Shown piece by piece: positions 1 to 50,430 of a stretch of 64,000 nucleotides of DNA. Under the pieces are notes generated by a model. It was not told the origin of the DNA and did no database searches. It was given only the letters and a program-made list of their open reading frames with translations. Made by a program: the position numbers and the translations under genes. The stretch is from an uncultured Bacilli bacterium (lineage in GTDB: Bacteria; Bacillota_I; Bacilli_A; RF39; UBA660), in contig CAKPCB010000003.1 of assembly GCA_934141245.1 (NCBI GenBank), positions 66,596 through 130,595 on the forward strand, given 5' to 3'. The stretch's first letter is position 1; each line of letters begins with the position of its first letter.

Positions 1-494
1 TAATTGATGACAATGGTGATAATTTAGAAATTCACATATTTAATAATAAGATTTTATTTAAAAATAATAATTTATTGTTTCAATCTCGCTTGATAAGTGG
101 AAATTATCCAAATATTAATAATTTAATACCAACAGATTCGTTTTTAAAAATTTCTGCAAATCTTGATGATATATATAATGTTATAGATAGGGCAAGTATC
201 TTAACTTCAGATAAAGAAAAAAACATAGTAACATTAGAGACTAACGGAAATATGTTAATTGTAAAATCATCATCTGCAGAAGTTGGTCGTGTTGAAGAAA
301 AAATGAGTATTATTAAAAATAATGATGAAAATATTAAAATTTCATTTAGTGCTAAGTATATGCTTGAAGCCTTGAAATCATTTAGTGGTAAAAATATTGA
401 AATGTCATTTGTAGGTGAAGTAAAACCAATAATTGTAAAGGATGATGAAGAAGAAAATCTAATACAATTAGTATTACCAATCAGAACATATTAA
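1..494 (+). CDS. dnaN: DNA polymerase III beta sliding clamp, C-terminal part (5' end lies outside the window)
   Basis: ORF 75..494 translates to a typical DnaN C-terminus (…EMSFVGEVKPIIVKDDEEENLIQLVLPIRTY). The reading frame is open to the window edge. recF/gyrB/gyrA follow, as at bacterial origins. Confidence 0.85.
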   Translation, partial: IDDNGDNLEIHIFNNKILFKNNNLLFQSRLISGNYPNINNLIPTDSFLKISANLDDIYNVIDRASILTSDKEKNIVTLETNGNMLIVKSSSAEVGRVEEKMSIIKNNDENIKISFSAKYMLEALKSFSGKNIEMSFVGEVKPIIVKDDEEENLIQLVLPIRTY

Positions 495-512
495 TAAAAA
501 TAAAAATAAAAA

Positions 513-541
513 TTATATGCTGTAATAGCATATTTTTTTTG
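513..541 (+). terminator. Rho-independent terminator after dnaN
   Basis: Hairpin ATATGCT-gtaat-AGCATAT followed by T8, directly after the dnaN stop codon. Confidence 0.5.
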
Positions 542-635
542 CAAAAAATAAGACAAAATTCGAACAATTTCGACATATGAATATGGTATATTTTTCGACA
601 GAATTTTTAATTTTGAAATTCTAAGGGGGATAATT

Positions 636-1094
636 ATGAATAATTATGAAATTAATGAAGAAACAATTGCAGTGATGCCTATTGAATATGAAAAGACTAA
701 AATTATAGAATCTAATAATGAATATATAATAAATTCAAAAGCATATTCAGTAATGGATCAAAATTGTAAATATTATGGAAGTACATATAATGGAAGGTTA
801 AAAGCAGCCAAAGAAATCTTAAATTGTTCTTATAAACTACCAATTTTAGTTGAAGAAAGTCAAAATATAATATTTTTTCCAACAAAATCGTCTTTAGAAG
901 ATGATTGCATGTGGATAAACTTTAATTTTATAAAGGAAATCAAAAAATGTGACAATGGAAGTGAGATTTATTTTAAAAATAATAAGTCTATTAAAACTAA
1001 TATTTCTAAATTGTCTATTGAAAATCAAATATCACGTTCAACTAGACTTAGTTATATAGTTGAACAGAGAAAAAAGAAGATAAGATTATATTAA
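636..1094 (+). CDS. comK: ComK-family competence transcription factor homolog
   Basis: Shares the ComK family block pattern with B. subtilis ComK: TIAVMP, CKYYGSTYNGR, KLPILV, QNIIFFPTKS and DCMWINF. RBS AAGGGGG lies upstream. The gene occupies the yaaA slot between dnaN and recF. Confidence 0.7.
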   Translation: MNNYEINEETIAVMPIEYEKTKIIESNNEYIINSKAYSVMDQNCKYYGSTYNGRLKAAKEILNCSYKLPILVEESQNIIFFPTKSSLEDDCMWINFNFIKEIKKCDNGSEIYFKNNKSIKTNISKLSIENQISRSTRLSYIVEQRKKKIRLY

Positions 1095-1196
1095 AAATAC
1101 TTTTTTTTCTTTATTTTTGTGGTATAATTGATATGTATGTATAGGGCTACACAGAATAGGTAAAGGTGATTTTATGGGGTTTTTAGGGGCTTTTAC

Positions 1197-2324
1197 ATGA
1201 ATTTATCTCAATTAACTTTAAAAAATTATAGAAATTATGAAAATGCAATACTAAATTTTAATAATAAGATTAATATAATCATAGGCGATAATGCCCAAGG
1301 TAAAACTAATATATTAGAGGCCATATATTTTTTAGCTATAACTAAATCATATAGAACATCTGATGATGTTAATCTTATAAGAACAGGTACTTTTCAAAGT
1401 GTTGTATCAGCTAAAGCAAAGATAAATGGAATGTCAAAAAAGATAAGTATCACATTTAATAAAAATACAAAAAAAATTGTATTTAATAATAATCCTGTAA
1501 AAAAATTATCCGAATTTATTGGAGTCTTAAAAATAGTATTAATGGCTCCAGAGGATATTGATATTATAAAAGGATCACCATCTATTAGAAGAAATTTTTT
1601 AAATATTGAATTAAGTAAAATGTCTAAAGATTATATTAATAAATATAATGAGTACAATAAATTGTTAAAAATGCGTAATGATTACTTGAAATTATTGATG
1701 ACAAACAATATTGCTGATCATAGATATTTAGATATTATAACTGATAAATTAATAGATAGAGCTGTATATATATATAGGAAAAGATTTGAATTTTTATGTA
1801 AGATAAATTACTACTTGGATTCAATTTATGATAATATCACTTTTGGTAGAAAATTAAAGATTGTTTATGAGCCTAATATAGATATAAAATTATTTGATGA
1901 TGAAAATATCAAAAAAAGTTTAAAGTATAAATATGATAGTAATTTGAATAAGGAAATGTCATTGGGTATGACAATCTATGGTCCACATAGGGATGATTTT
2001 TTGTTTTTAATTGATGACAAAAATATAGAATTTTTTGGTTCACAAGGTCAACAAAAATTAGCAGTAATTGCATTAAAATTATCAATTGTTTATGTTTTAA
2101 ATGAATTAACTAATGAGATGCCTATATTACTTTTAGATGATATTTTTAGTGAAGTAGATAAAAAAAAGAAAAATAAAATACTAGAATATATAAAAAATAT
2201 AGGTCAGGTAGTAATAACTACAAACGATATCAAAGATATAAATAAAAATAAATTAGATGATGTCAAGATCATAAAAATTAAAAATCAAAAAATAACAGAA
2301 AAGGGTGGTAAAAATGGAAGATAG
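1197..2324 (+). CDS. recF: DNA replication and repair protein RecF
   Basis: N-terminal Walker A ([15 protein letters not shown]) and RecF-typical length. Position dnaN-recF-gyrB is conserved. Confidence 0.9.
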
Positions 2325-4230
2325 TCATTATGATTCGTCCTCAATACAAGTTTTAGAGGGCTTAGAAGCTGTAAGAAAAAGGCCAGGTATGTACATTGGT
2401 ACAACAGATGTTAAAGGATTACATCATTTGGTATGGGAAATTGTAGATAATTCAATAGATGAATCATTAGCAGGTTATTGTAATAATATTGAAATTGTTA
2501 TTAATAAAGATAATTCTATAACTGTTAAAGATGATGGAAGAGGAATACCAACTGAAATCCATCCAAAAACAAAAATTTCTACTGTTGAAACTGTTTATAC
2601 TGTATTACATGCAGGCGGAAAATTTGGTGGTGGAGGTTATAAAGTTTCTGGTGGATTACATGGCGTAGGTGCAAGTGTTGTTAATGCACTTAGTAAATGG
2701 CTTGAAGTTAAAGTGTATAAAAATGGCGAAGTTTACTATATTAAATTTCAAAATGGTGGACATACAGTAGAACCATTACATGTAATTGATAAGTGTAGTG
2801 CAAACAGAACAGGAACTACAGTAACATTTAAGCCTGATCCAGATATTTTTGATACAGATATATATGATTATGACACTTTAAAGGTAAGAATTAGAGAATT
2901 AGCATTTTTAAATAGAGGTCTTTCATTAACTTTAAGAGATGATAGGGATATGGAGGATACTACTGGTGAAACATTCTTATATGAAGGTGGAATAAGCGAA
3001 TATGTAAAATTTATAAACAAAGAAAAAACACCTGTACATGAAGATATAATTCATTTTCAAGGTGAAGAAGATGGCGTTTTCTTTGAAGTAGCTATGCAAT
3101 ATAATACAAGTTACAATGATAATATATATTCCTTTGTCAATAATATAAATACACATGATGGAGGGACACACGAGGAAGGTGTAAAAAGAGCACTAACACG
3201 TGTTATTAATAATTATGCTAGAAAAGTTAATCTATTAAAAGAAAAAGATGATTCCTTAACAAGTGAAGATGTTAAAGAAGGTTTAACCATGATTATTTCT
3301 TGTAAACATCCAAATCCACAATTTGAGGGTCAAACAAAGGGAAGATTAGGTAATTCAGAGGTTAGAAAGTTAGCAGATAGTGTTTTCTCAAAAGGGTTTG
3401 AAAGATTTTTGCTAGAAAATCCAGAAGAGGCAAAAGCAATTATAAATAAGGCTATGTTGGCTTCAAGAGCAAGAAATGCAGCAAAAAAAGCACGTGAAAT
3501 AACAAGAAAAAGTGATTTGGCGATGACAAACTTTTTCGGTAAATTATCTGATTGCAAGAGTAAAGATCCAAATGTTTCTGAGATTTTTATTGTCGAGGGA
3601 GATTCAGCAGGTGGTTCAGCAAAAAAAGGTAGAGATTCAATGACACAGGCAATTTTGCCATTAAGAGGTAAAATATTAAATGTTGAAAAATCTAGACTAG
3701 ATAGAGCACTATCTAATGAGGAAATACGTACTATAATTACTGCATTTGGAACAGGTGTCGGTGATGATTTTAATCTTGATAAGTTGAGATATAATAAGAT
3801 AATCATAATGACAGATGCAGATGTTGATGGTTCTCATATAAGAGTTCTACTTTTAACATTGTTTTATAGATTTTTTAAGCCTATAGTGGAAGCAGGACAT
3901 ATATATGCTGCACAACCACCTTTATATAGAATAATGCATGGTAAAACAAGAAAATATGTTTTAAATGATGAAGAATTAGAAGAATATTTGAAAACTCTAC
4001 CAAGTAATACAAAAAGAGAAATAGCGCGTATGAAAGGTTTAGGTGAAATGGATCCTGATGAATTAAATGAAACAACTATGGATATTGAAAAAAGAGTATT
4101 AAGAAAAATAACTGTAGATGATTGTATGGCAGCTGATTCAATATTTTCAAAATTAATGGGTGATGAAGTAGAACCACGTAGAAAATTCATTGAAGAAAAT
4201 GCTGGATATGTACAAAACTTAGATATTTAG
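2314..4230 (+). CDS. gyrB: DNA gyrase subunit B
   Basis: [30 protein letters not shown]… GHKL ATPase and TOPRIM motifs. C-terminus …[11 protein letters not shown]. The likely start is the ATG at 2314, inside the longer ORF that opens at 2305. Confidence 0.95.
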
Positions 4231-4238
4231 GGGGTATT

Positions 4239-6746
4239 ATGGATAACAATAGTAATAACAATGAAAATGAAATATTTGATGAATCACTTGAAAGAGTAAA
4301 TATGAAAAATGAATTTAGTGGATATTTTCATGAAAGAGATAGTCTAGCAGAAAATAACATAGTTGATGAAGTTAAAACATCATTCTTGGAATATTCAGTT
4401 AGTGTTATAGCATCTCGTGCTTTGCCTGATCTAAGAGATGGATTAAAACCAGTACACAGACGTATTTTATGGTCAATGTATGAATCTGGATATACTCCGG
4501 ATAAACCTCATAGAAAAAGTGCTAAAACTGTTGGTGAAGTTATGGGTAATTATCATCCACATGGCGATAGTTCAATTTATGAGGCAATGGTACGATTGGC
4601 TCAAGATTTCAATCAAAGATATATGTTGATTGATGGTCATGGTAATTTTGGTAACATAGAAGGTGACGGCGCTGCTGCAATGCGTTATACAGAGTCAAGA
4701 CTTGCAAAAATATCACTAGAATTATTAAGAGATATAAATAAAGATACTGTTGACATGGATGATAATTTTGATGCAACTAGAAAAGAACCAAAAATTTTAC
4801 CTTCAAGATTTCCTAACGTTCTTGTTAATGGTTCTATGGGTATTGCGGTTGGTATGGCAACAAATATTCCTCCACATAATTTAGGTGAAGTAATTGATGG
4901 ATGTATTGCATATATAGATAATCCCGAAATTGATGTTTTTGGACTAATGCAATATATAAAAGGACCAGATTTCCCGACAGGAGGTATTATTTTAGGTAAT
5001 TCCGGAATAAAAAAAGCATATGAAACAGGAAGAGGAACGATAACTATACGTAGTAAAGCTGTAATAGAAGAAGTTGGTAACCATAGTAACATAATAATAA
5101 CAGAGGTTCCATATGGTATAAATACAATGGAATTAAAAAATAAAGTTGCTGAACTAGTTCATAATAAAACTATTGAGGGAATTGCAGATTATCATACGGA
5201 CTTAAAAGATGGTGTAAAAATTACAATTACACTAAAAAAAGATGCTAATGCACAGGTTGTATTAAATAATTTGTATAAGCATACTAATTTTCAAATAACA
5301 TATGGAATAATATTATTAATGCTTGATGGTTTAACACCTAAAACTTTAGATTTAAAATCAATTATTTCTAAATATATTGATCATCAAAAAGAAGTTATAA
5401 TAAGAAGAACAAAATTTGATTTAATAAAAGATGAAAAAAGAGTTCATATTTTAGAGGGATACAAAATTGCACAGGATAATATAGATGAAGTTGTTAAAAT
5501 AATAAAATCAGCATCAAGCGATATAGAAGCAAAGGCAAATTTAGTATCAAAATTTTCATTAACTGAGATTCAGGCAGATGCTATATTAGAATTGAAGTTA
5601 AGACGTTTAACAGGACTAGAAAGAGAAAAAATAGAAGCAGAACTAACTCAATTATTGGAAGAAATAGCTGAGTTAAAATCAATTTTATCTTCTGAACAAA
5701 AAGTTCTTGATATAATTAAAAAAGAAATGTTGGAAATAAAAAATAAATATTCTGATGAGAGAAGAACACATATTGATATGACAGCTATTGAATATATAGA
5801 AGATGAGTCATTGATTCCTGTTCAAAAAACAATTATAGCATTAACAAAAAAAGGTTATATAAAAAGAATGTTAACAGATAATTATCGTACTCAAAATCGT
5901 GGTGGTGTAGGAATTAAAGGCATGACAACTAATGAAGAAGATTATATTGATAAAATGATAAATGCTGAAACACATGACTTTATACTATTCTTTAGTAATA
6001 AGGGGAAAGTATATAAAATGAAAGGTTATGAGATTCCAGAATTTAGCAGGCAATCAAAAGGTTTGCCAATTGTTAATTTATTGTCTCTTGAACATGATGA
6101 AAAGATTACATCAATAATTTCATTGGAAAGGGAGAATGTATCGAACAAATATTTGATATTTTTTACTAAAAATGGAATTGTAAAAAGAACAGCAATTGAA
6201 GAATTTGATAATATTAGAACTAATGGTAAAAAAGCTATTATTTTAAAAGAAAATGATGAATTAATTTCAGTTGGTAAATCTACTGGTAATAATGAAATTA
6301 TGATTGGTGCAAGTAATGGTAGAATGGTTAGATTTAAAGAAGAAGAAATAAGAATAATGAGTCGTAGTAGTACGGGTGTGAAGGGAATCGAATTTACTAA
6401 TTCATACGTAGTTGGGGCAGAAGTTGTTTCAGCTTCAGATCAAATTTTGATTGTAACAGAAAATGGATATGGTAAAAAAACAAATATAGATGAATATAGA
6501 TTAACACATCGTGGAAGCAAAGGCGTAAAAGCTTTAAATATAACAGAAAAAAATGGAAATATGATTTCATTAAAAACTTTAAAGAATGATGAAGATGTAT
6601 TAATTATAACTAATAACGGAATAATTATAAGAATTTCTTCTGAGCAAATTTCTCAACTAGGAAGAAATACACAAGGTGTTAGATTAATTAATTTAAAAGA
6701 TAATCAAAAAGTTTCTACTATAAGTTTAGTATCAAAAGATGAATAG
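4239..6746 (+). CDS. gyrA: DNA gyrase subunit A
   Basis: YSVSVIASRALPDLRDGLKPVHRRILWSMYE, active-site Tyr region and C-terminal beta-pinwheel repeats. 835 aa. Confidence 0.95.
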   Translation: MDNNSNNNENEIFDESLERVNMKNEFSGYFHERDSLAENNIVDEVKTSFLEYSVSVIASRALPDLRDGLKPVHRRILWSMYESGYTPDKPHRKSAKTVGEVMGNYHPHGDSSIYEAMVRLAQDFNQRYMLIDGHGNFGNIEGDGAAAMRYTESRLAKISLELLRDINKDTVDMDDNFDATRKEPKILPSRFPNVLVNGSMGIAVGMATNIPPHNLGEVIDGCIAYIDNPEIDVFGLMQYIKGPDFPTGGIILGNSGIKKAYETGRGTITIRSKAVIEEVGNHSNIIITEVPYGINTMELKNKVAELVHNKTIEGIADYHTDLKDGVKITITLKKDANAQVVLNNLYKHTNFQITYGIILLMLDGLTPKTLDLKSIISKYIDHQKEVIIRRTKFDLIKDEKRVHILEGYKIAQDNIDEVVKIIKSASSDIEAKANLVSKFSLTEIQADAILELKLRRLTGLEREKIEAELTQLLEEIAELKSILSSEQKVLDIIKKEMLEIKNKYSDERRTHIDMTAIEYIEDESLIPVQKTIIALTKKGYIKRMLTDNYRTQNRGGVGIKGMTTNEEDYIDKMINAETHDFILFFSNKGKVYKMKGYEIPEFSRQSKGLPIVNLLSLEHDEKITSIISLERENVSNKYLIFFTKNGIVKRTAIEEFDNIRTNGKKAIILKENDELISVGKSTGNNEIMIGASNGRMVRFKEEEIRIMSRSSTGVKGIEFTNSYVVGAEVVSASDQILIVTENGYGKKTNIDEYRLTHRGSKGVKALNITEKNGNMISLKTLKNDEDVLIITNNGIIIRISSEQISQLGRNTQGVRLINLKDNQKVSTISLVSKDE

Positions 6747-6828: not shown

Positions 6829-6834
6829 AGCTTT

Positions 6835-6914
6835 GATGCAATAAATATATTGGAATCAGGTCAGGATTGGAAGATAGCAGCCTTAACAATTAATATTTAT
6901 GTGCATCATTTTTT
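6835..6914 (+). ncRNA. ffs: Small SRP RNA (4.5S/scRNA-type, domain IV only)
   Basis: Contains CAGGTCAGG-ATT-GGAA-GAT-AGCAGCC. This matches the universally conserved SRP RNA helix-8 motif (E. coli CAGGUCAGG-UCC-GGAA-GGA-AGCAGCC), and the base pairs closing the GGAA tetraloop covary. A long terminal stem (GATGCAATAAATATATTGG / CCTTAACAATTAATATTTATGTGCATC) is followed by a T6 run. A promoter lies upstream. Confidence 0.6.
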
Positions 6915-6925
6915 ATGGAGAATTT

Positions 6926-17993: not shown

Positions 17994-18124
17994 AGTGATA
18001 TTACTTAGGTATATTTTCTGTATAATATAGAATAATATATATAGGTTATATTGAAATTTAATTTATTGTATTGAATTATAATACTTTTTTTGATATAATC
18101 TTCACATATTTATTGTTTTGAAGG

Positions 18125-18325
18125 AAAGAGTTATATATGCTTTTTATAGAGAGTCTTTGTTTGGTGAAAAAAGATATTAGGTATATAATGGATGGCTCCT
18201 GAACTTGTTAATTGATATGTAGGTTAACACGTTAGCAGCGTTAATGCATTTGAGAGTATAGATTTAATCTATAAATTAAGGTGGTACCGCGATTATTCGT
18301 CCTTATGATGAATAGTCTTTTTTTA
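18125..18325 (+). promoter_or_regulatory. T-box riboswitch leader (probable Met specifier) with terminator, upstream of dut-metG
   Basis: Canonical T-box sequence AAATTAAGGTGGTACCGCG at 18273-18291. Downstream terminator (GATTATTCGTC-cttat-GATGAATAGTC + T7) at 18291-18324. AGAGAG GA-motif early in stem I. AUG triplets at 18188-18194. An extended -10 (TGATATAAT) lies upstream. Confidence 0.6.
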
Positions 18326-18339
18326 TTGGAGGCGATAGT

Positions 18340-18819
18340 ATGGAAAGATACTTTGAAAAAATTAGTTTTAATCAATTTAAAAAAGATGTGGTTGATAACA
18401 AAAAAATGTATGATGCTTATTCATTACCCAAACGTGGTACTAAAAATAGTGCTGGTTATGATTTTGAAGCATTATATGATTTTGTTATAAAACCTGGAGA
18501 AATAAAAAAAATTCCGCTTGGTATAAAAGCCTCAATGAATGATAATGAAGTTTTATTTATATTAGTAAGAAGTAGTCAAGGATTTAAGTATAATGTTCGG
18601 ATGTGTAATCAAGTAGGAGTGATTGATTCTGATTATTATAATAACTCTGATAATGAGGGTCATATATTTATTAAACTTCAAAACCAAGGTGATAATGATT
18701 ATGTTGTAAAAACTGGTGATAAAATTTGCCAGGGAATATTTATTAATTACTTAGTAGTTGATAATGAAGAAAAAATTGAGAGAAAGAGATTATCTGGGAT
18801 AGGTTCTACAGGTAATTAG
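18340..18819 (+). CDS. dut: dUTP diphosphatase (trimeric dUTPase)
   Basis: dUTPase motifs: SAGYDF, VRSSQGFK, GVIDSDYY, KICQG and RLSGIGSTGN. Confidence 0.75.
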   Translation: MERYFEKISFNQFKKDVVDNKKMYDAYSLPKRGTKNSAGYDFEALYDFVIKPGEIKKIPLGIKASMNDNEVLFILVRSSQGFKYNVRMCNQVGVIDSDYYNNSDNEGHIFIKLQNQGDNDYVVKTGDKICQGIFINYLVVDNEEKIERKRLSGIGSTGN

Positions 18820-22899: not shown

Positions 22900-23685
22900 A
22901 TGCTTTTTAAAGTTGGAGACATAGTTAGTAGAAATTCATATAACAATGATACATTATTTAAAATAGTATCTATAGAGGACGGGCTAATTAATTTAAAAGG
23001 TGTGGAAGTTCGTCTATATGCAGATAGCCCGCCAGGTGATTTAAAACTAGAAAAAGATTTATCATTAAAAAATGAAGATGAGGAACTAATAGAAGAAGTT
23101 AATGAAACAATTCGTCTTGATAGAAATGAATTTTTTTATTTACCTGGTAAGGTTTTGCATATAGATGGTGATGATGAGTATTTAGAGCGTTGTATAAATT
23201 TTTATAAAAAAATGAAAGTAAAGACATATGCATTAAGTTTAAAAGAAGAAGTTATGTCAATAGATATTCAAAAGTATTTGAAAGAACTTAAACCTGATAT
23301 CGTTGTTATAACAGGACATGATTTTTTTTACAAAAATAGAAAAGAAATAAATAATATAAATAATTATAAAAATAGTAAATTTTTTGTTGATGCAATTAAA
23401 AAAGCTAGAGAATACGAAAAGTCACAAGATAAATTAATAATAATAGCTGGTGCCTGTCAGTCGGATTATGAGAGTTTGATAAAAGCTGGTGCAAATTTTG
23501 CTAGCAGTCCTAAAAGAGTAAATATTCATGCACTTGATCCTGCTATAATAGCAGCTTCAGTTGCGCTTTCAACTAGAGATAAACCTATTGATATTATTAA
23601 GATTATTGAAAGAACTAAATATAAAGAGGAAGGGATAGGTGGTATCATTACTAATGGAATGATGTATAGGGGGTATCCAAGATAA
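22900..23685 (+). CDS. yabG: Sporulation-specific protease YabG (peptidase U57)
   Basis: Conserved ksgA-yabG-veg context and YabG-like core (…IVVITGHDFFYK…). Confidence 0.65.
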   Translation: MLFKVGDIVSRNSYNNDTLFKIVSIEDGLINLKGVEVRLYADSPPGDLKLEKDLSLKNEDEELIEEVNETIRLDRNEFFYLPGKVLHIDGDDEYLERCINFYKKMKVKTYALSLKEEVMSIDIQKYLKELKPDIVVITGHDFFYKNRKEINNINNYKNSKFFVDAIKKAREYEKSQDKLIIIAGACQSDYESLIKAGANFASSPKRVNIHALDPAIIAASVALSTRDKPIDIIKIIERTKYKEEGIGGIITNGMMYRGYPR

Positions 23686-39550: not shown

Positions 39551-40081
39551 ATGAGAAAAACATTTTTAATTTTAGCGACTATAATTATGATTTTTTTAAT
39601 TAGCAAAACAAACTATTCAGAAGAAATAATTATTCCAAATGATTCAATTAGAATAAGGGTAATCGCCAATTCTAATTCAGAATATGATCAAAAACTGAAA
39701 AAAAATGTTAAACACTCTATTCAAAAGCAGTTGTCAGAGATGTTAAAGGATGCATCTGATATTAACGAAGTAAGAGAAATATTAAAGAACAATTTAGGAA
39801 ATATTGAATATACTGTTGAAAAAGTATTTGAGAAAAACAAATATAATAATTCCTTTGAAGTTAAATATGGTTATAATTTTTTCCCTAAAAAAATATATAG
39901 GGGAATTGAATATGATGAAGGAACCTATGAATCAATTGTTATTAAAATAGGTGAATCGAAAGGAGATAATTGGTGGTGTGTATTATTTCCACCTTTATGT
40001 TTGATGGATGAAGAAGAAGAACAAATGGAAGATGTTGAGTATAAATCTTTTATAAAAGAAATTATAGATAAATATTTTTAG
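39551..40081 (+). CDS. spoIIR: Stage II sporulation protein R
   Basis: Signal peptide, …IRIRVIANSNSEYDQKLKKNV… and NWWCVLFPPLC, a SpoIIR signature. Conserved position after prmC. Confidence 0.8.
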   Translation: MRKTFLILATIIMIFLISKTNYSEEIIIPNDSIRIRVIANSNSEYDQKLKKNVKHSIQKQLSEMLKDASDINEVREILKNNLGNIEYTVEKVFEKNKYNNSFEVKYGYNFFPKKIYRGIEYDEGTYESIVIKIGESKGDNWWCVLFPPLCLMDEEEEQMEDVEYKSFIKEIIDKYF

Positions 40082-47604: not shown

Positions 47605-48354
47605 TTGATTGAGGCGATTTATATGATTAATTTTATTATATGTGATGATAATAGGGAGTTTTTAAAAAAAGAGAAAAATATTATTGATAAACTTATGATG
47701 AGATACGATATAGAATATAAGTGTATCTTATTTGATGAATATAATAAAGACTTTGAAAACATGGCCGCAAAGGATATAGGGTTTAAAATATATTTACTTG
47801 ATATTCAAACAAAAAATGGCTCTGGACTTGATGCAGCAAGATGTATAAGAGAAGAATTAGATGACTGGGTTTCAATCATTATAATAATAACTGCATTTAA
47901 TGAATTTAAATATGAGGCATTAGGTAACAGACTATACTTATTGGATTTTATTAATAAGCTAAATAAGTGTGATGAAAATCTTAAAGAAACTTTAGAAATT
48001 GCAATAAAACATTATGATAATAGAGAAAAAAGTTTAAGTTATGAATATAATCATATAATTAAAAAAATAGAATTTAGACATATTATATATATAGAAAAAG
48101 AACTTGATAGCAAAAGAAGTTTAGTAAAGACAACTTATGGAGCACATTTTATAAACAAAAATTTAAATGAAACAGAACCGCTTTTGGATAATAGATTTAT
48201 TAGAACAAGTAGAAGCATGATTGTAAACATTGATTATGTAAGTGAATTTGATATGAAAAACAATAAAATAATCTTTAAATCTGGAGATGTTTGCTATCAA
48301 GTCTCTAGAAAAAAGAAGAAGGAGTTACGGGAATATGTTAGAAACAACACTTAG
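47605..48354 (+). CDS. agrA: LytTR-family response regulator (AgrA-like)
   Basis: Receiver domain (FIICDDN…YLLDIQT) and C-terminal LytTR domain (…FIRTSRSMIVNIDYV…). Confidence 0.75.
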   Translation: MIEAIYMINFIICDDNREFLKKEKNIIDKLMMRYDIEYKCILFDEYNKDFENMAAKDIGFKIYLLDIQTKNGSGLDAARCIREELDDWVSIIIIITAFNEFKYEALGNRLYLLDFINKLNKCDENLKETLEIAIKHYDNREKSLSYEYNHIIKKIEFRHIIYIEKELDSKRSLVKTTYGAHFINKNLNETEPLLDNRFIRTSRSMIVNIDYVSEFDMKNNKIIFKSGDVCYQVSRKKKKELREYVRNNT

Positions 48355-49624
48355 AATTATAATTGCTTTCATAAACCCTATTGTTGGTTATCATATAATT
48401 AGAAATTTTGGGGGTAAAGATAAATCCGTTTCATTATCTTTTAGAGTTTTCTTAATTTTTGTTTTAGCAGTTTCAAACTTGCTGATATATAATGTATCCT
48501 ATAATTCTTTAATAACATTGATAAATTTTTTATTAACAATAATTGTTTATAAAGCTTTATTTAAAACAAGTTTATTTGAATCGATAATTTTATCCACAGT
48601 TTTGTTTATAATTTTAACACTTGCAGATGTTGTTGTTTCACTAATTTTAGTTTCGTTTGTTACTGCAGAGGAAGTTAGAAAGAATGTGTATTATATGTTA
48701 ATTGGAAATGTCTCTGTAGGATTGCTATCTTATGCATTATCATATGCTCCATTTATAAAAAATAATGTAAAAAAATTCGTTGAAAAAAGTGAAGATAATC
48801 ATAAGGTTAAAATAGTTGTCTTTTTTTTATTAACAATATTACTGGCATCAATTTTACTTTATGCAATATCAATTAACTATAAATTAATTAACGAATATAT
48901 ATTGATAGTAGTTATAATGTGCATTTTAATTGTTTTGTTTTTAATATACATAATGGAAAATAATAACAGAATGCAATTTGAAGCTAAATACCTTTCTTTG
49001 TTTGATTATTTTAAAACTTTTGAGGATATGATTGACAGTGACAGAGAATTTATGCATGAGTATAAGAACCAATTAGCAGCTATTAGAGAAATGAATAATA
49101 TAAGTTCTGTAAGAAAATATATAAATTCAATATTAGGCTATGTTGACAACTCTAAAGTAGATTATATATCTGATTTAAAATTTATACCCAAGGGTGGTGT
49201 AAAAGGGATAATATATTATAAACTAATGATTGCTAAGAATAAAAATATAAGTGTAACAATTAATGTTAATAAAAACATAAAAGAGTTAGAATTTATAGAT
49301 AGTGAAACACAAAAAAACTTAATTAAAGTTTTAGGAATTTGCTTAGATAATGCTATAGAAGCTAGTGAAGTTTCAGAAAAAAAGAATATTTCATTAGAAA
49401 TATACAAAATGTCTAATGAGATAAGAATTGTTATATGTAATACTTATAATAGTGATTTAGTTGATTTGAATAAAATTGAAAATAAAGGCTATTCTACAAA
49501 AGGTAAAGGTAGAGGTAATGGACTATATTACTTGTCAAAGGTTATAAGTTCTCAAAAAACAATTTCTACTGAATGGGTTATTATGAATGACTATTTTGTA
49601 AGAAAGATATTTATAAAAATTTAA
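48335..49624 (+). CDS. agrC: AgrC-like (HPK10) sensor histidine kinase
   Basis: Six to seven N-terminal TM helices, H-box (EYKNQLAAIREM), and a GHKL ATPase (…GRGNGLYYLSKV…). The start overlaps the 3' end of agrA. Confidence 0.7.
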   Translation: MLETTLRIIIAFINPIVGYHIIRNFGGKDKSVSLSFRVFLIFVLAVSNLLIYNVSYNSLITLINFLLTIIVYKALFKTSLFESIILSTVLFIILTLADVVVSLILVSFVTAEEVRKNVYYMLIGNVSVGLLSYALSYAPFIKNNVKKFVEKSEDNHKVKIVVFFLLTILLASILLYAISINYKLINEYILIVVIMCILIVLFLIYIMENNNRMQFEAKYLSLFDYFKTFEDMIDSDREFMHEYKNQLAAIREMNNISSVRKYINSILGYVDNSKVDYISDLKFIPKGGVKGIIYYKLMIAKNKNISVTINVNKNIKELEFIDSETQKNLIKVLGICLDNAIEASEVSEKKNISLEIYKMSNEIRIVICNTYNSDLVDLNKIENKGYSTKGKGRGNGLYYLSKVISSQKTISTEWVIMNDYFVRKIFIKI

Positions 49625-49670
49625 AAAATAAAGTCAAGGTTATTTATCTTAAATCTTGACTTTATTTTTG
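49623..49670. terminator. Bidirectional terminator between agrC (+) and agrD (-)
   Basis: AAAGTCAAG-(16 nt)-CTTGACTTT with A/T runs on both sides. Confidence 0.5.
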
Positions 49671-49677
49671 TTATAGA

Positions 49678-49797
49678 TTAGTCCATGAATTTTGGAGCTT
49701 CTGGTTCATCAATGAACAGCCACATGCATCCAACAGAAGCTGCTGTAGAAGCTAATAGTGCAACTGCTGCTAAAGCTACTGAAAATAATTTTTTCAT
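49678..49797 (-). CDS. agrD: AgrD-like autoinducing peptide precursor (39 aa, below the ORF-track cutoff)
   Basis: MKKLFSVALAAVALLASTAASVGCMWLFIDEPEAPKFMD. It has an amphipathic leader, a Cys-containing core (…GCMWLFI) and the conserved acidic AgrD tail (IDEPEAPKF, compare S. aureus …DEVEVPKEL). GGAGG RBS 6 nt upstream. Directly downstream of agrB. Confidence 0.6.
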   Translation of the reverse strand: MKKLFSVALAAVALLASTAASVGCMWLFIDEPEAPKFMD

Positions 49798-49839
49798 ATG
49801 CTACCTCCTTTACTTTTATATAAAAATGCTTTTGCATTT

Positions 49840-50430
49840 TTAACAATTTTTATAATTATTATAAGGCATCTTTAAAGCTTTATATGTTAATGGGTTTATC
49901 ATTATTGCTTCTATTATTAATGATATAAGTAAAGTGTTTGAAACAATTCTTGTATTTATTAAAAATATGGCTATTGAATATACTATGGACAAAATAACTG
50001 AAGCAATTTTTCTATATTTTCTTTTTTTTGCATTTGTCAATGGTCTTTTAATTGTATCCGCAGGTGCAAATACTAAATAATCTATTGTACAGATGATACA
50101 CAATATAATTTTAATAGTATTACTTATATAAATTTTAGAAATTAACAATGTAAGCCCAAATATAAGTAATATTGATGTTATTAGACAAATACTACTCTTA
50201 TCGGCATGTACTCCAAATGCAGGATATCTAATTATATTCAAGAAAACTAAAACTAAAATAATTTCTTTAAATATGTTAAATATAATTGATAGTACTAATA
50301 TGACAATTAATTTAGTAATTGTTAAGTATATTCCTTCTAAACCGTATCTGATTTTTTCAATATCAGTTTCATTATAGGCATTATACTTTTTTATTAAGTT
50401 AATTGAATTGTTTAAAAAAACTTCTTTCAT
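49840..50430 (-). CDS. agrB: AgrB-family AIP-processing membrane endopeptidase
   Basis: 196 aa, four to six TM helices, conserved His/Cys region (…RYPAFGVHADKSSICLITS…). AAGGGGAAAAAT RBS. Confidence 0.75.
   Translation of the reverse strand: MKEVFLNNSINLIKKYNAYNETDIEKIRYGLEGIYLTITKLIVILVLSIIFNIFKEIILVLVFLNIIRYPAFGVHADKSSICLITSILLIFGLTLLISKIYISNTIKIILCIICTIDYLVFAPADTIKRPLTNAKKRKYRKIASVILSIVYSIAIFLINTRIVSNTLLISLIIEAIMINPLTYKALKMPYNNYKNC

What the first reader, a model, noticed from the sequence alone, without database searches (positions are those of the whole stretch)
636..1094. ComK homolog inserted between dnaN and recF at the replication origin
The 152-aa ORF shows the ComK family blocks (TIAVMP, C+YYGS(T/S)Y.GR, K.PI.V, QNI.FFPT.S, C.WI). 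It occupies the slot held by the small S4-like yaaA in Bacillus. A competence master-regulator homolog placed in the origin-proximal dnaA-dnaN-recF-gyrBA operon region of a spore former is unusual. It may mean the gene's dosage or timing is tied to replication initiation.
Basis: partly seen in the sequence, partly recalled or inferred. Interest (0 to 1): 0.55.

Follow-up and report, generated by a model that had tools for sequence, protein, structure and literature searches.

The report
Origin-anchored ComK gene with Spo0A boxes
An intact gene for a short ComK-type regulator, the family that controls DNA uptake in Bacillus, sits between dnaN and recF next to the replication origin in every relative examined of this uncultured gut bacterium, and its promoter carries phased consensus binding sites for the sporulation regulator Spo0A.

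Summary
ORF 636-1094 is a full-length ComK-family protein (Pfam PF06338, 139 bits). It is 36% identical to B. subtilis ComK. It lies between the 3' end of dnaN and recF-gyrB-gyrA.

It is not a recent insertion. In all 80 species-level genomes recovered through the protein, comK sits in this same slot wherever the contig reaches far enough to show both neighbours. The same holds for a second short-ComK subfamily only 32% identical to the window protein. The gene is intact everywhere and under purifying selection (dN/dS about 0.1).

comK looks like its own transcription unit. A terminator-like hairpin follows dnaN, and recF has an invariant TGnTATAAT promoter.

The main new result concerns the comK promoter. 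It has no -35 element. It carries 2-3 copies of TTCGACA(AA), the reverse complement of the Spo0A box TGTCGAA. All copies point the same way, are spaced 10 or 20 bp apart, and the nearest ends 11 nt before the -10. The motif is about 220-fold enriched there.

The protein lacks the region matching the last 35 residues of B. subtilis ComK. Published work links that tail to transcription activation.

Best reading: a core-only ComK gated by Spo0A and fixed beside oriC. Its target genes, and any effect of gene dosage, remain untested.

The parts
75..494 (+). 3' part of dnaN (sliding clamp, C-terminal domain); the window begins inside the gene
   Evidence: Pfam DNA_pol3_beta_3, 87.9 bits. Full dnaN lies upstream of comK in same-species contigs.
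507..541 (+). Terminator-like hairpin (AUAUGCUG-UAA-UAGCAUAU) followed by a U-run, just after dnaN
   Evidence: RNA fold -10.1 kcal/mol, z -1.96. Comparable hairpin plus T-run in many relatives.
559..565 (+). Imperfect box TTCGAAC, 10 bp upstream of the next box
   Evidence: Read from the sequence. It is in phase with the box at 569.
569..575 (+). Consensus box TTCGACA (reverse complement of the Spo0A core TGTCGAA); ends 11 nt before the -10 hexamer
   Evidence: Consensus taken from PMC3485338.
584..592 (+). Predicted extended -10 element TGgTATATT of the comK promoter; no -35 hexamer 17 bp upstream
   Evidence: A TAnnnT hexamer starts exactly 11 nt after the proximal box in 46 of 66 loci, 19 of them with TG. 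This is a prediction; no transcription start site data exist.
594..600 (+). Second exact TTCGACA box, immediately after the -10, over the predicted transcription start
   Evidence: The 64-kb window holds only 3 exact copies, 2 of them here.
600..622 (+). Leader hairpin or palindrome AGAATTTT-N7-GAAATTCT between the -10 and the SD
   Evidence: A hairpin sits at this position in many clades with different sequences (median z -1.8 over 64 loci). It is absent in some clades.
636..1094 (+). comK: 152-aa core-only ComK-family protein
   Evidence: Pfam 139 bits. 36% identity to B. subtilis ComK residues 9-157. Intact in 80 of 80 loci. dN/dS median 0.105. AF2 model pLDDT 80.5.
1064..1110 (+). Weak A/U-rich hairpin plus T-run overlapping the comK stop; possible leaky terminator
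   Evidence: -8.9 kcal/mol, z -0.48 in the window. Clearer in some relatives, for example L005 at -15.2 kcal/mol, z -2.4.
1120..1128 (+). Extended -10 (TGgTATAAT) of the recF-gyrB-gyrA promoter
   Evidence: TATAAT is present in all 72 aligned comK-recF spacers and preceded by TGn in nearly all printed rows. It is also found in the second subfamily.
1129..1200 (+). Conserved initial transcribed region (GTATGTATAGG...), SD AAGGTGA and an 8-codon uORF (1174-1200, MGFLGAFT) whose TGA overlaps the recF ATG
   Evidence: No Rfam family matches.
1197..2324 (+). recF; overlaps the gyrB start (2305); gyrA follows at 4239

Best explanation
The ORF encodes the ComK-family DNA-binding regulator of an uncultured, low-GC (about 26%), small-genome gut member of the Bacilli that carries sporulation genes. 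Its relatives are MAGs labelled Bacilli, Tenericutes, Erysipelotrichaceae and Clostridium sp. CAG:710. From memory these resemble the RF39 group; that assignment was not verified.

Shown: the gene is a single transcription-unit-sized module fixed between dnaN and recF, 1.4-2.9 kb from the oriC DnaA boxes. This holds across a deep clade, and the gene is under strong purifying selection.

Shown: its promoter has an extended -10 and no -35. It carries 2-3 same-orientation copies of TTCGACA(AA), spaced exactly one or two helical turns apart. The nearest copy ends 11 nt before the -10.

Inferred: these are Spo0A boxes, so phosphorylated Spo0A directly gates comK transcription when growth ends. Boxes at about -30, -40 and -50 on a promoter without a -35 suggest activation. 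The extra box over the start site in this window suggests shut-off at high Spo0A~P, as at B. subtilis PcomK.

Inferred: the protein keeps the ComK DNA-binding core but lacks the region matching the last 35 residues of B. subtilis ComK. That tail was reported as needed to activate comG. From memory it also carries the FMLYPK motif that MecA recognises. Control after translation, and the way the protein acts on RNA polymerase, therefore probably differ from the Bacillus model.

Inferred, not tested: its targets are DNA-uptake and recombination genes elsewhere in the genome. Its origin-adjacent position gives it the highest copy number in replicating or replication-stressed cells. This would bias a threshold switch, as for pneumococcal comCDE.
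For: Family: Pfam 139 bits; 36% identity and E 1e-33 to verified COMK_BACSU; 44 invariant columns among 25 homologues.

Conservation of place: dnaN-comK-recF-gyrB(-gyrA) in all 80 genome loci wherever the contig reaches far enough to show the neighbours. ComK identity runs from 42 to 70%, and RecF identity falls to 39%. Same-species contigs agree. The 5 comK loci recovered purely through the promoter motif all have dnaN upstream, and four have recF downstream. A second subfamily 32% identical to the window protein has the same order.

Selection: intact ORFs of roughly 150 aa (most 148-158) in all loci; median dN/dS 0.105 over 61 pairs.

Boxes: 74 forward and 1 reverse TTCGACA in 9.1 kb of dnaN-comK spacers (8.1 per kb), against 0.037 per kb forward in the other 737 kb. 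Successive cores are 10 bp apart 24 times and 20 bp apart 16 times. 58 of 80 loci have at least 2 phased boxes, against 0.01 expected in shuffles and 0 of 72 in comK-recF spacers. The spacing to the -10 is fixed at 11 nt in 46 of 66 loci. The second subfamily shows the same boxes and geometry.

Identity of the box: TGTCGAA flanked by A/T is the Spo0A core consensus in Bacillus and Clostridioides (PMC3485338). Spo0A~P binds B. subtilis PcomK directly, activating and then repressing it (PMC3297582).

Sporulation genes are present in the window and beside it. RF39 is predicted to sporulate (PMC10868615).

In a metagenome scan for triple phased boxes, the low-GC intergenic hits lie upstream of comK (5 hits), spoVS, soj/parA and mgtE. 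None lies upstream of a late competence gene.

DnaA boxes of the lineage are canonical, lie elsewhere, and are absent from the comK promoter.

Precedent for an origin-dosage effect: PMC5034851.
Against: No spo0A gene was seen directly, because none of the DNA I could reach contains it. Its presence is inferred from other sporulation genes and from the literature on RF39, and membership of RF39 rests on my memory.

The nearest box lies in the promoter spacer (about -30 to -24). This is unlike the characterised Spo0A-activated promoters as I recall them, so the sign of regulation is open.

22 of 80 loci lack two phased boxes, and 7 have none.

No late competence genes were found in the 64-kb window or in about 30 kb of flanks. 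No ComK boxes are present in the promoter. The competence role therefore rests on homology alone.

Loss of the C-terminal tail abolished comG activation by B. subtilis ComK, and the short B. cereus ComK2 lowered comG expression (PMC3128618). This argues against a simple activator.

The conserved position could be mere inertia inside a cluster of essential genes.
Confidence: 0.6

Rival explanations
1. The TTCGACA repeats are not Spo0A sites. They are bound by ComK itself, forming a lineage-specific self-activation site, or by another response regulator that recognises direct repeats one helical turn apart.
For: The model's best solved-structure matches are LytTR domains (ComE, AgrA), which bind direct repeats. 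An agr-like system with a LytTR regulator lies in the window. The canonical AAAA-N5-TTTT boxes are missing. spo0A was not observed directly.
Against: The repeat matches the 7-bp Spo0A core exactly and has its A/T flank. LytTR sites are 9-bp repeats about 21 bp apart with a different sequence (my own knowledge). The motif stays identical while ComK diverges to 32% identity. Triple boxes also precede spoVS, soj and mgtE but no late competence gene. The LytTR resemblance is weak (E about 0.01, TM 0.35-0.5) and has no sequence-profile support.
Confidence: 0.15
2. The short ComK is not a competence activator. It is a core-only DNA-binding protein that represses or modulates genes, like B. cereus ComK2. 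Alternatively it has taken on a role linked to its neighbours, such as the recF-gyrase operon or origin-region chromatin. This would explain why it never leaves the slot.
For: It lacks the region matching B. subtilis residues 158-192. Deleting the C-terminal 25 residues abolished comG activation but not DNA binding, and ComK2, which lacks 22 residues, lowered comG expression (PMC3128618). The synteny with replication and repair genes is very strict. No com genes or ComK boxes were seen in reachable DNA.
Against: Insertions of 0.6-2 kb, including a transposase, between comK and recF are tolerated in six relatives. recF has its own strongly conserved promoter with no shared motif. In every characterised case ComK-family proteins regulate competence genes (my own knowledge). 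The absence of com genes from about 94 kb of a genome of roughly 1.3-1.5 Mb says little.
Confidence: 0.25
3. The origin-adjacent position has no regulatory meaning. One ancient insertion into a rarely rearranged block of essential genes has simply been inherited.
For: The dnaA-dnaN-recF-gyrBA block is conserved across Firmicutes (my own knowledge). comK has its own promoter and terminators, so it needs nothing from its neighbours. There is no DnaA box in its promoter.
Against: The gene never moved or was lost in more than 90 loci spanning two subfamilies. Other sequences did insert into the same spacer during that time. Origin-proximal placement of competence and sporulation regulators has demonstrated function elsewhere (PMC5034851). 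None of this is decisive.
Confidence: 0.4

Closest known systems
B. subtilis ComK (COMK_BACSU), master regulator of competence
   Same: Same Pfam family over the whole core. 36% identity, with all conserved blocks aligned. Its promoter is also bound directly by Spo0A~P (PMC3297582).
   Different: The window protein is 152 aa rather than 192 aa. It lacks the first 8 and last 35 residues of the B. subtilis protein, including the tail needed for comG activation. B. subtilis comK is not at the origin (my own knowledge), and its five Spo0A sites are all degenerate. Here the gene abuts oriC and the boxes are consensus and phased. No AAAA-N5-TTTT self-activation boxes are present.
B. cereus ComK2 (C-terminally truncated ComK paralogue)
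   Same: A naturally short ComK that lacks the C-terminal activation region (PMC3128618).
   Different: ComK2 coexists with a full-length ComK1. Here only the short form was seen, at one conserved locus. This protein is shorter still. Direct similarity to ComK2 was not tested.
Streptococcus pneumoniae comCDE/comAB beside oriC (dosage-triggered competence)
   Same: Early competence regulators hard-wired next to the origin. Replication stress raises their copy number and trips a positive-feedback switch (PMC5034851).
   Different: The proteins are unrelated: a two-component system plus peptide, against ComK. Positive feedback and dosage sensitivity are unproven here.
Spo0A-controlled promoters with tandem 0A boxes (abrB, spoIIG, spoIIE, PcomK)
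   Same: TGTCGAA core with an A/T flank, several boxes on one face of the helix, and a promoter without a usable -35. The comparison with the spoIIG and spoIIE geometry is from my own knowledge.
   Different: The nearest box lies in the spacer, ending 11 nt before the -10. I know of no characterised Spo0A promoter with this position. The boxes here are far closer to consensus than at B. subtilis PcomK.

Membership tests
ComK family (Pfam PF06338) | Full-length match to the family profile above the curated threshold | tested here: met
   139.3 bits against a cut-off of 22.3; model positions 2-151 of 152.
ComK family (Pfam PF06338) | Significant pairwise similarity to the experimentally characterised B. 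subtilis ComK | tested here: met
   36% identity over 149 aa, E 1e-33. The reference sequence was verified by exact look-up.
ComK family (Pfam PF06338) | Matches an NCBIfam model or a solved ComK structure | tested here: not met
   No NCBIfam hit beyond noise. No ComK chain in the PDB by sequence or by fold search. This reflects what those libraries contain, not evidence against membership.
B. subtilis-type ComK circuit | C-terminal extension (B. subtilis residues about 158-192) used for transcription activation and, from memory, for MecA targeting through FMLYPK | tested here: not met
   The alignment ends at B. subtilis residue 157, and only 7 further residues follow in the window protein. 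Role of the tail: PMC3128618.
B. subtilis-type ComK circuit | Self-activation through ComK boxes (two AAAA-N5-TTTT motifs 8, 18 or 31 bp apart) in its own promoter | tested here: not met
   No AAAA-N5-TTTT between 495 and 635. The matches in relatives come from terminator A-runs and T-runs. The lineage's ComK may recognise a different site.
B. subtilis-type ComK circuit | Controls late competence operons (comG, comE, comF, dprA, ssbB) | not testable with these tools
   None of these genes was found in the window or its flanks. The rest of the genome could not be fetched.
Spo0A regulon promoter | Consensus 0A box TGTCGAA with an A/T flank | tested here: met
   Two exact copies in the window (569, 594). 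74 copies in 80 spacers, about 220-fold enriched, 74:1 strand bias, mostly as TTCGACAA(A). Consensus from PMC3485338.
Spo0A regulon promoter | Multiple boxes phased by whole helical turns, at a fixed position relative to the core promoter | tested here: met
   Spacings of 10 bp (24 times) and 20 bp (16 times). 58 of 80 loci phased against 0.01 in shuffles. 11 nt to the -10 in 46 of 66 loci.
Spo0A regulon promoter | spo0A is present in the same genome | not tested
   Inferred only. SpoIIR, YabG and a sigH-like sigma factor are present. RF39 is predicted to sporulate, and spo0A is described as an absolute requirement for sporulation (PMC10868615).
Spo0A regulon promoter | Spo0A~P binds the promoter and changes transcription | not testable with these tools
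   Needs EMSA or DAP-seq and reporter assays.
Origin-dosage-controlled competence switch (pneumococcal type) | The regulator is encoded within a few kb of oriC | tested here: met
   comK starts about 1.4 kb from the dnaA-dnaN DnaA box and about 2.9 kb from the DnaA-box cluster upstream of dnaA. GC skew is positive across most of the window.
Origin-dosage-controlled competence switch (pneumococcal type) | A positive-feedback loop that is sensitive to less than a twofold change in copy number | not testable with these tools
   No self-activation site was identified. No expression data are available.

The most novel reading that the evidence does not exclude
In this whole clade of small-genome gut Bacilli, the decision to switch on ComK is built into chromosome layout. 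A core-only ComK lies directly after dnaN, the gene next to the origin, is read from a promoter that depends on Spo0A~P, and sits immediately upstream of the recF-gyrase operon. It would then act as a switch that combines replication state (copy number at the origin) with starvation signalling. The short ComK may act on origin-region or recombination genes rather than, or as well as, on DNA-uptake genes. That would be a second, independently evolved case of origin-anchored competence control, and the first for the ComK type.
Probability: 0.15. Interest if true: 0.75.

Novelty: new variant of a known kind. Interest (0 to 1): 0.5.

Why it matters
ComK regulation is a textbook case of a noisy, threshold-driven cell-fate switch, but it has been studied mainly in Bacillus and its close relatives. 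Here a large, uncultured, human- and animal-associated lineage carries a pared-down version. It has a core-only protein, no recognisable self-activation boxes, a promoter dominated by consensus Spo0A sites, and a chromosomal address beside oriC that has not changed across deep divergence.

If the position matters, this would extend the idea that gene location controls competence from streptococci to the ComK world. It would also tie DNA uptake to sporulation signalling in gut bacteria with reduced genomes, which bears on gene exchange in the microbiome.

Even if the position is only inherited, the locus is useful in practice. It gives a sharply defined candidate Spo0A operator set and a conserved recF-gyrase promoter and leader, both of which help in annotating these MAGs.

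Tried and rejected
1. ComK boxes. AAAA-N5-TTTT is absent from the window promoter. The apparent excess in relatives comes from terminator A-runs and T-runs and from the mononucleotide shuffle control, so it is uninformative.

2. DnaA control. There is no TTATCCACA-type box in any dnaN-comK spacer. The lineage's DnaA boxes are canonical and lie upstream of dnaA and in the dnaA-dnaN spacer. TTCGACA differs from the DnaA box at an essential position.

3. A seeming second cluster of TGTCGAA/TTCGACA near dnaA turned out to be conserved codons inside the dnaA coding sequence of one clade, not an operator.

4. RNA families. Rfam gave only SRP RNA and a T-box elsewhere in the window. Nothing meaningful appeared in 450-1300 even at E up to 10.

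6. LytTR relationship. Foldseek hits to ComE and AgrA were not backed by a profile comparison with the window's own LytTR regulator. I treat this as a lead only.

7. Late competence genes. None was found among the window ORFs of 120 aa or more that were scanned, nor in 10-kb extensions on each side.

8. Literature. No paper links comK with dnaN-recF synteny. No paper links RF39 with competence genes. A search for 'CAG-710' with 'RF39' found nothing, so the order-level assignment stays unverified.

9. Pseudogene or chance ORF: rejected by dN/dS of 0.1 and intactness in all loci.

Full report
WHAT IS THERE

ORF 636-1094 on the + strand encodes a 152-aa protein. It has an ATG start preceded by a strong Shine-Dalgarno sequence, AAGGGGGA at 623-630. 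The protein matches Pfam ComK (PF06338) from end to end, with 139.3 bits against a threshold of 22.3 and E 1.1e-40.

I checked my recalled B. subtilis ComK sequence by exact look-up and it is COMK_BACSU. BLASTP against it gives 36% identity over 149 residues, E 1e-33, covering B. subtilis residues 9-157. NCBIfam and the PDB hold nothing comparable.

Upstream lies the C-terminal domain of DnaN (75-494); the window starts inside dnaN. Downstream lie recF (1197-2324), gyrB (2305-4230, overlapping recF) and gyrA (4239-6746).

THE HOST

The window has about 26% GC and positive GC skew across most of its length. It has a small-type SRP RNA and a T-box. Its gene order resembles the origin-proximal region of B. 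subtilis as I remember it. It includes holB, yabC-like, pth, mfd, metG, tatD, ksgA, yabG, dnaB, spoIIR, secA and cysS.

The exact ComK protein occurs on 82 metagenomic contigs; the ones retrieved carry human-gut sample accessions. On those contigs the order is parB-gidB-gidA-trmE-jag-yidC-rnpA-dnaA-dnaN-comK-recF-gyrB-gyrA. Four DnaA boxes with at most one mismatch cluster upstream of dnaA, and one lies in the dnaA-dnaN spacer. comK is therefore 1.4-2.9 kb from oriC.

The nearest genomes are uncultured MAGs labelled Bacilli, Tenericutes, Erysipelotrichaceae and Clostridium sp. CAG:710. Two are closed chromosomes of 1.31 and 1.52 Mb. From memory this fits the RF39 group, but I could not verify that.

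The window encodes SpoIIR and YabG. A sigH-like sigma factor follows mrnC-rlmB just beyond the window end. RF39 has been predicted to form spores (PMC10868615). 'Spore former' is therefore plausible.

THE SYNTENY IS LINEAGE-WIDE

A scan of one genome per species found 194 relatives of the protein, and the best 80 were kept. In every one of them, comK lies downstream of dnaN and upstream of recF-gyrB(-gyrA) wherever the contig reaches far enough to show the neighbours. ComK identity to the window protein ranges from 42 to 70%, and RecF identity falls to 39%.

All copies are intact and of roughly the same length, most 148-158 aa. The median dN/dS is 0.105 over 61 pairs.

Six loci carry 0.6-2 kb of extra DNA between comK and recF. 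This includes an IS30-like transposase and a pair of apparently CotF-like genes, identified by eye. The gene order is otherwise unchanged.

A second short-ComK subfamily has the same dnaA-dnaN-comK-recF-gyrB-gyrA order in a different upstream context. Its protein is 32% identical to the window protein and scores 90 bits on Pfam ComK.

So 'inserted' is misleading. This is an old, stable feature of a deep clade. I found no paper that describes it.

TRANSCRIPTION UNITS

In the window, dnaN is followed by a hairpin and a run of U (507-541; -10.1 kcal/mol, z -1.96).

recF has a TATAAT hexamer in all 72 aligned spacers, preceded by TGn in nearly all of them (1120-1128 in the window). After it come a strongly conserved initial transcribed region (GTATGTATAGG...), an SD and a short uORF. 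In the window the uORF's stop overlaps the recF ATG (1174-1200). The second subfamily has the same promoter.

A weak A/U hairpin with a T-run overlaps the comK stop codon. It is clearer in some relatives.

comK thus looks monocistronic, although some read-through into recF cannot be excluded.

THE comK PROMOTER

I aligned the dnaN-comK spacers on the comK start codon. This revealed repeated TTCGACA, mostly extended to TTCGACAA(A). The counts are as follows.

- There are 74 forward copies and 1 reverse copy in 9.1 kb of spacers (8.1 per kb). The other 737 kb of the same loci have 0.037 forward copies per kb.
- Successive cores are exactly 10 bp apart 24 times and 20 bp apart 16 times.
- Allowing two mismatches, 58 of 80 loci have at least two boxes in helical phase. 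Shuffled spacers give 0.01 such loci, and comK-recF spacers give 0 of 72.
- In 46 of 66 loci a TAnnnT hexamer starts exactly 11 nt after the proximal box, and 19 of these have the TG of an extended -10. No -35 hexamer sits at the usual distance.

In the window the elements are:

- TTCGAAC at 559
- TTCGACA at 569
- TGgTATATT at 584-592
- a further TTCGACA at 594, over the predicted transcription start

About 84 kb of this species' origin region holds only three exact copies on either strand, and two are here.

TTCGACA is the reverse complement of TGTCGAA. That is the Spo0A core box in both B. subtilis and C. difficile, and it is usually flanked by A/T (PMC3485338). In B. subtilis, Spo0A~P binds PcomK directly at five degenerate boxes, first activating and then repressing it (PMC3297582).

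ALTERNATIVES FOR THE BOX

DnaA is unlikely. The lineage's DnaA boxes are canonical, lie elsewhere, and are absent from this spacer. An apparent second cluster of the motif near dnaA proved to be conserved codons within dnaA in one clade.

Among low-GC intergenic hits:

- five were comK promoters, all downstream of dnaN and four followed by recF
- the others preceded spoVS (Pfam 122 bits), soj/parA, mgtE and two unknown genes
- none preceded a late competence gene

This favours a global sporulation-linked regulator over a ComK self-site, but the sample is small. I did not see spo0A itself.

THE PROTEIN

The AlphaFold2 model (pLDDT 80.5) is a beta-rich core with a long C-terminal helix. Its best matches among solved structures are LytTR DNA-binding domains, namely ComE and AgrA. 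The matches are weak (E about 0.01, TM 0.35-0.5). A profile comparison with the window's own LytTR regulator found nothing. This remains only a lead.

The protein lacks the region matching the last 35 residues of B. subtilis ComK. Deleting the last 25 residues of B. subtilis ComK abolished comG activation but not DNA binding. The naturally short B. cereus ComK2 lowered comG expression (PMC3128618). From memory, that tail also carries the FMLYPK motif recognised by MecA.

This ComK is therefore core-only, and it need not work as the Bacillus activator does.

WHAT COULD NOT BE SHOWN

- There are no AAAA-N5-TTTT ComK boxes in the promoter.
- No late competence genes were found in the window or its flanks.
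- The rest of the genome could not be reached.
- The sign of Spo0A control is open. Boxes at about -50, -40 and -30 on a promoter without a -35 suggest activation. The window's box over the start site suggests added repression.
- The dosage idea has a real precedent in pneumococcal comCDE/comAB beside oriC (PMC5034851). Here it is untested, and simple inheritance within an essential gene block remains a live alternative.

VERDICT

This is a genuine, functional ComK-family gene in an unusual but lineage-wide origin-adjacent slot. Its promoter architecture is conserved and very probably controlled by Spo0A. It is a new variant of a known kind, of moderate interest.

Noticed in passing
window 1120-1200 (also L001-L080 and L207-L209, comK-recF spacers): The recF-gyrB-gyrA promoter is strongly conserved: a TGnTATAAT extended -10 without a -35, a conserved GTATGTATAGG at about +1, and an SD plus a roughly 8-codon uORF overlapping the recF start. 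It is more conserved than the flanking coding sequence. It may be the supercoiling-sensitive gyrase promoter, or a leader-peptide control element.
   Followed up: partly
window 600-622; the same position in many L001-L080 loci: A hairpin or palindrome lies between the comK -10 and the SD. Its sequence differs between clades (GTAATTTnAAATTAC, CATAACT..AGTTATG, AAAGCAA..TTGCTTT). Median folding z is -1.8 over 64 loci. It is absent in some clades. It could be an mRNA 5' stem-loop or an operator.
   Followed up: partly
[not shown]
   Followed up: partly
window 47605-50430: An agr-like quorum-sensing locus: a LytTR response regulator (47605-48354), a GHKL histidine kinase (48287-49624) and, on the opposite strand, AgrB (49840-50430). 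It is a possible upstream signal for development in this organism.
   Followed up: no
window 22900-23685 and 39551-40081; L085 11782-12402: Sporulation genes yabG and spoIIR lie within 40 kb of the origin. A 206-aa sigH-like sigma factor follows mrnC-rlmB just past the window end. Origin-proximal spoIIR is functionally important in B. subtilis (PMC5034851).
   Followed up: partly
L165 (spoVS), L101 (soj/parA), L140 (mgtE), L118, L146: Three consensus TCGACA boxes 10 bp apart also lie upstream of spoVS, soj/parA, mgtE and two unknown genes in other low-GC metagenome contigs. At spoVS the box-to-(-10) spacing is similar. This suggests a class of promoters with this architecture.
   Followed up: partly
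L100, L207-L214 (proteins P0150-P0269): A second subfamily of short ComK proteins is only 32% identical to the window protein. Its host lineage has a different context upstream of dnaA (sulfatase-family gene, DUF87 ATPase). It keeps the same dnaN-comK-recF order, the same boxes and the same recF promoter.
   Followed up: yes
L066 5634-6965; L006 5471-6020; L035/L072 about 5550-6040; L077; L079: A few relatives carry extra genes between comK and recF: an IS30-like transposase, two small genes that look CotF-like by eye (not scanned), and unknown ORFs. None is a yaaA-like S4 protein.
   Followed up: partly
window 18109-18819: A T-box leader (109 bits) is followed first by a 159-aa ORF with a dUTPase-family hit and only then by metG. 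This is an unusual first gene for a T-box-controlled unit.
   Followed up: no
window 6830-6915: A small-type bacterial SRP RNA overlaps the listed start of the tadA-like deaminase ORF (6899). Same-species gene calls start that gene later, giving 145 aa.
   Followed up: no
L037 and L058: Two contigs of one MAG (CAWVIV01) each carry a complete dnaN-comK-recF-gyrB region. That bin probably mixes two strains or species.
   Followed up: no
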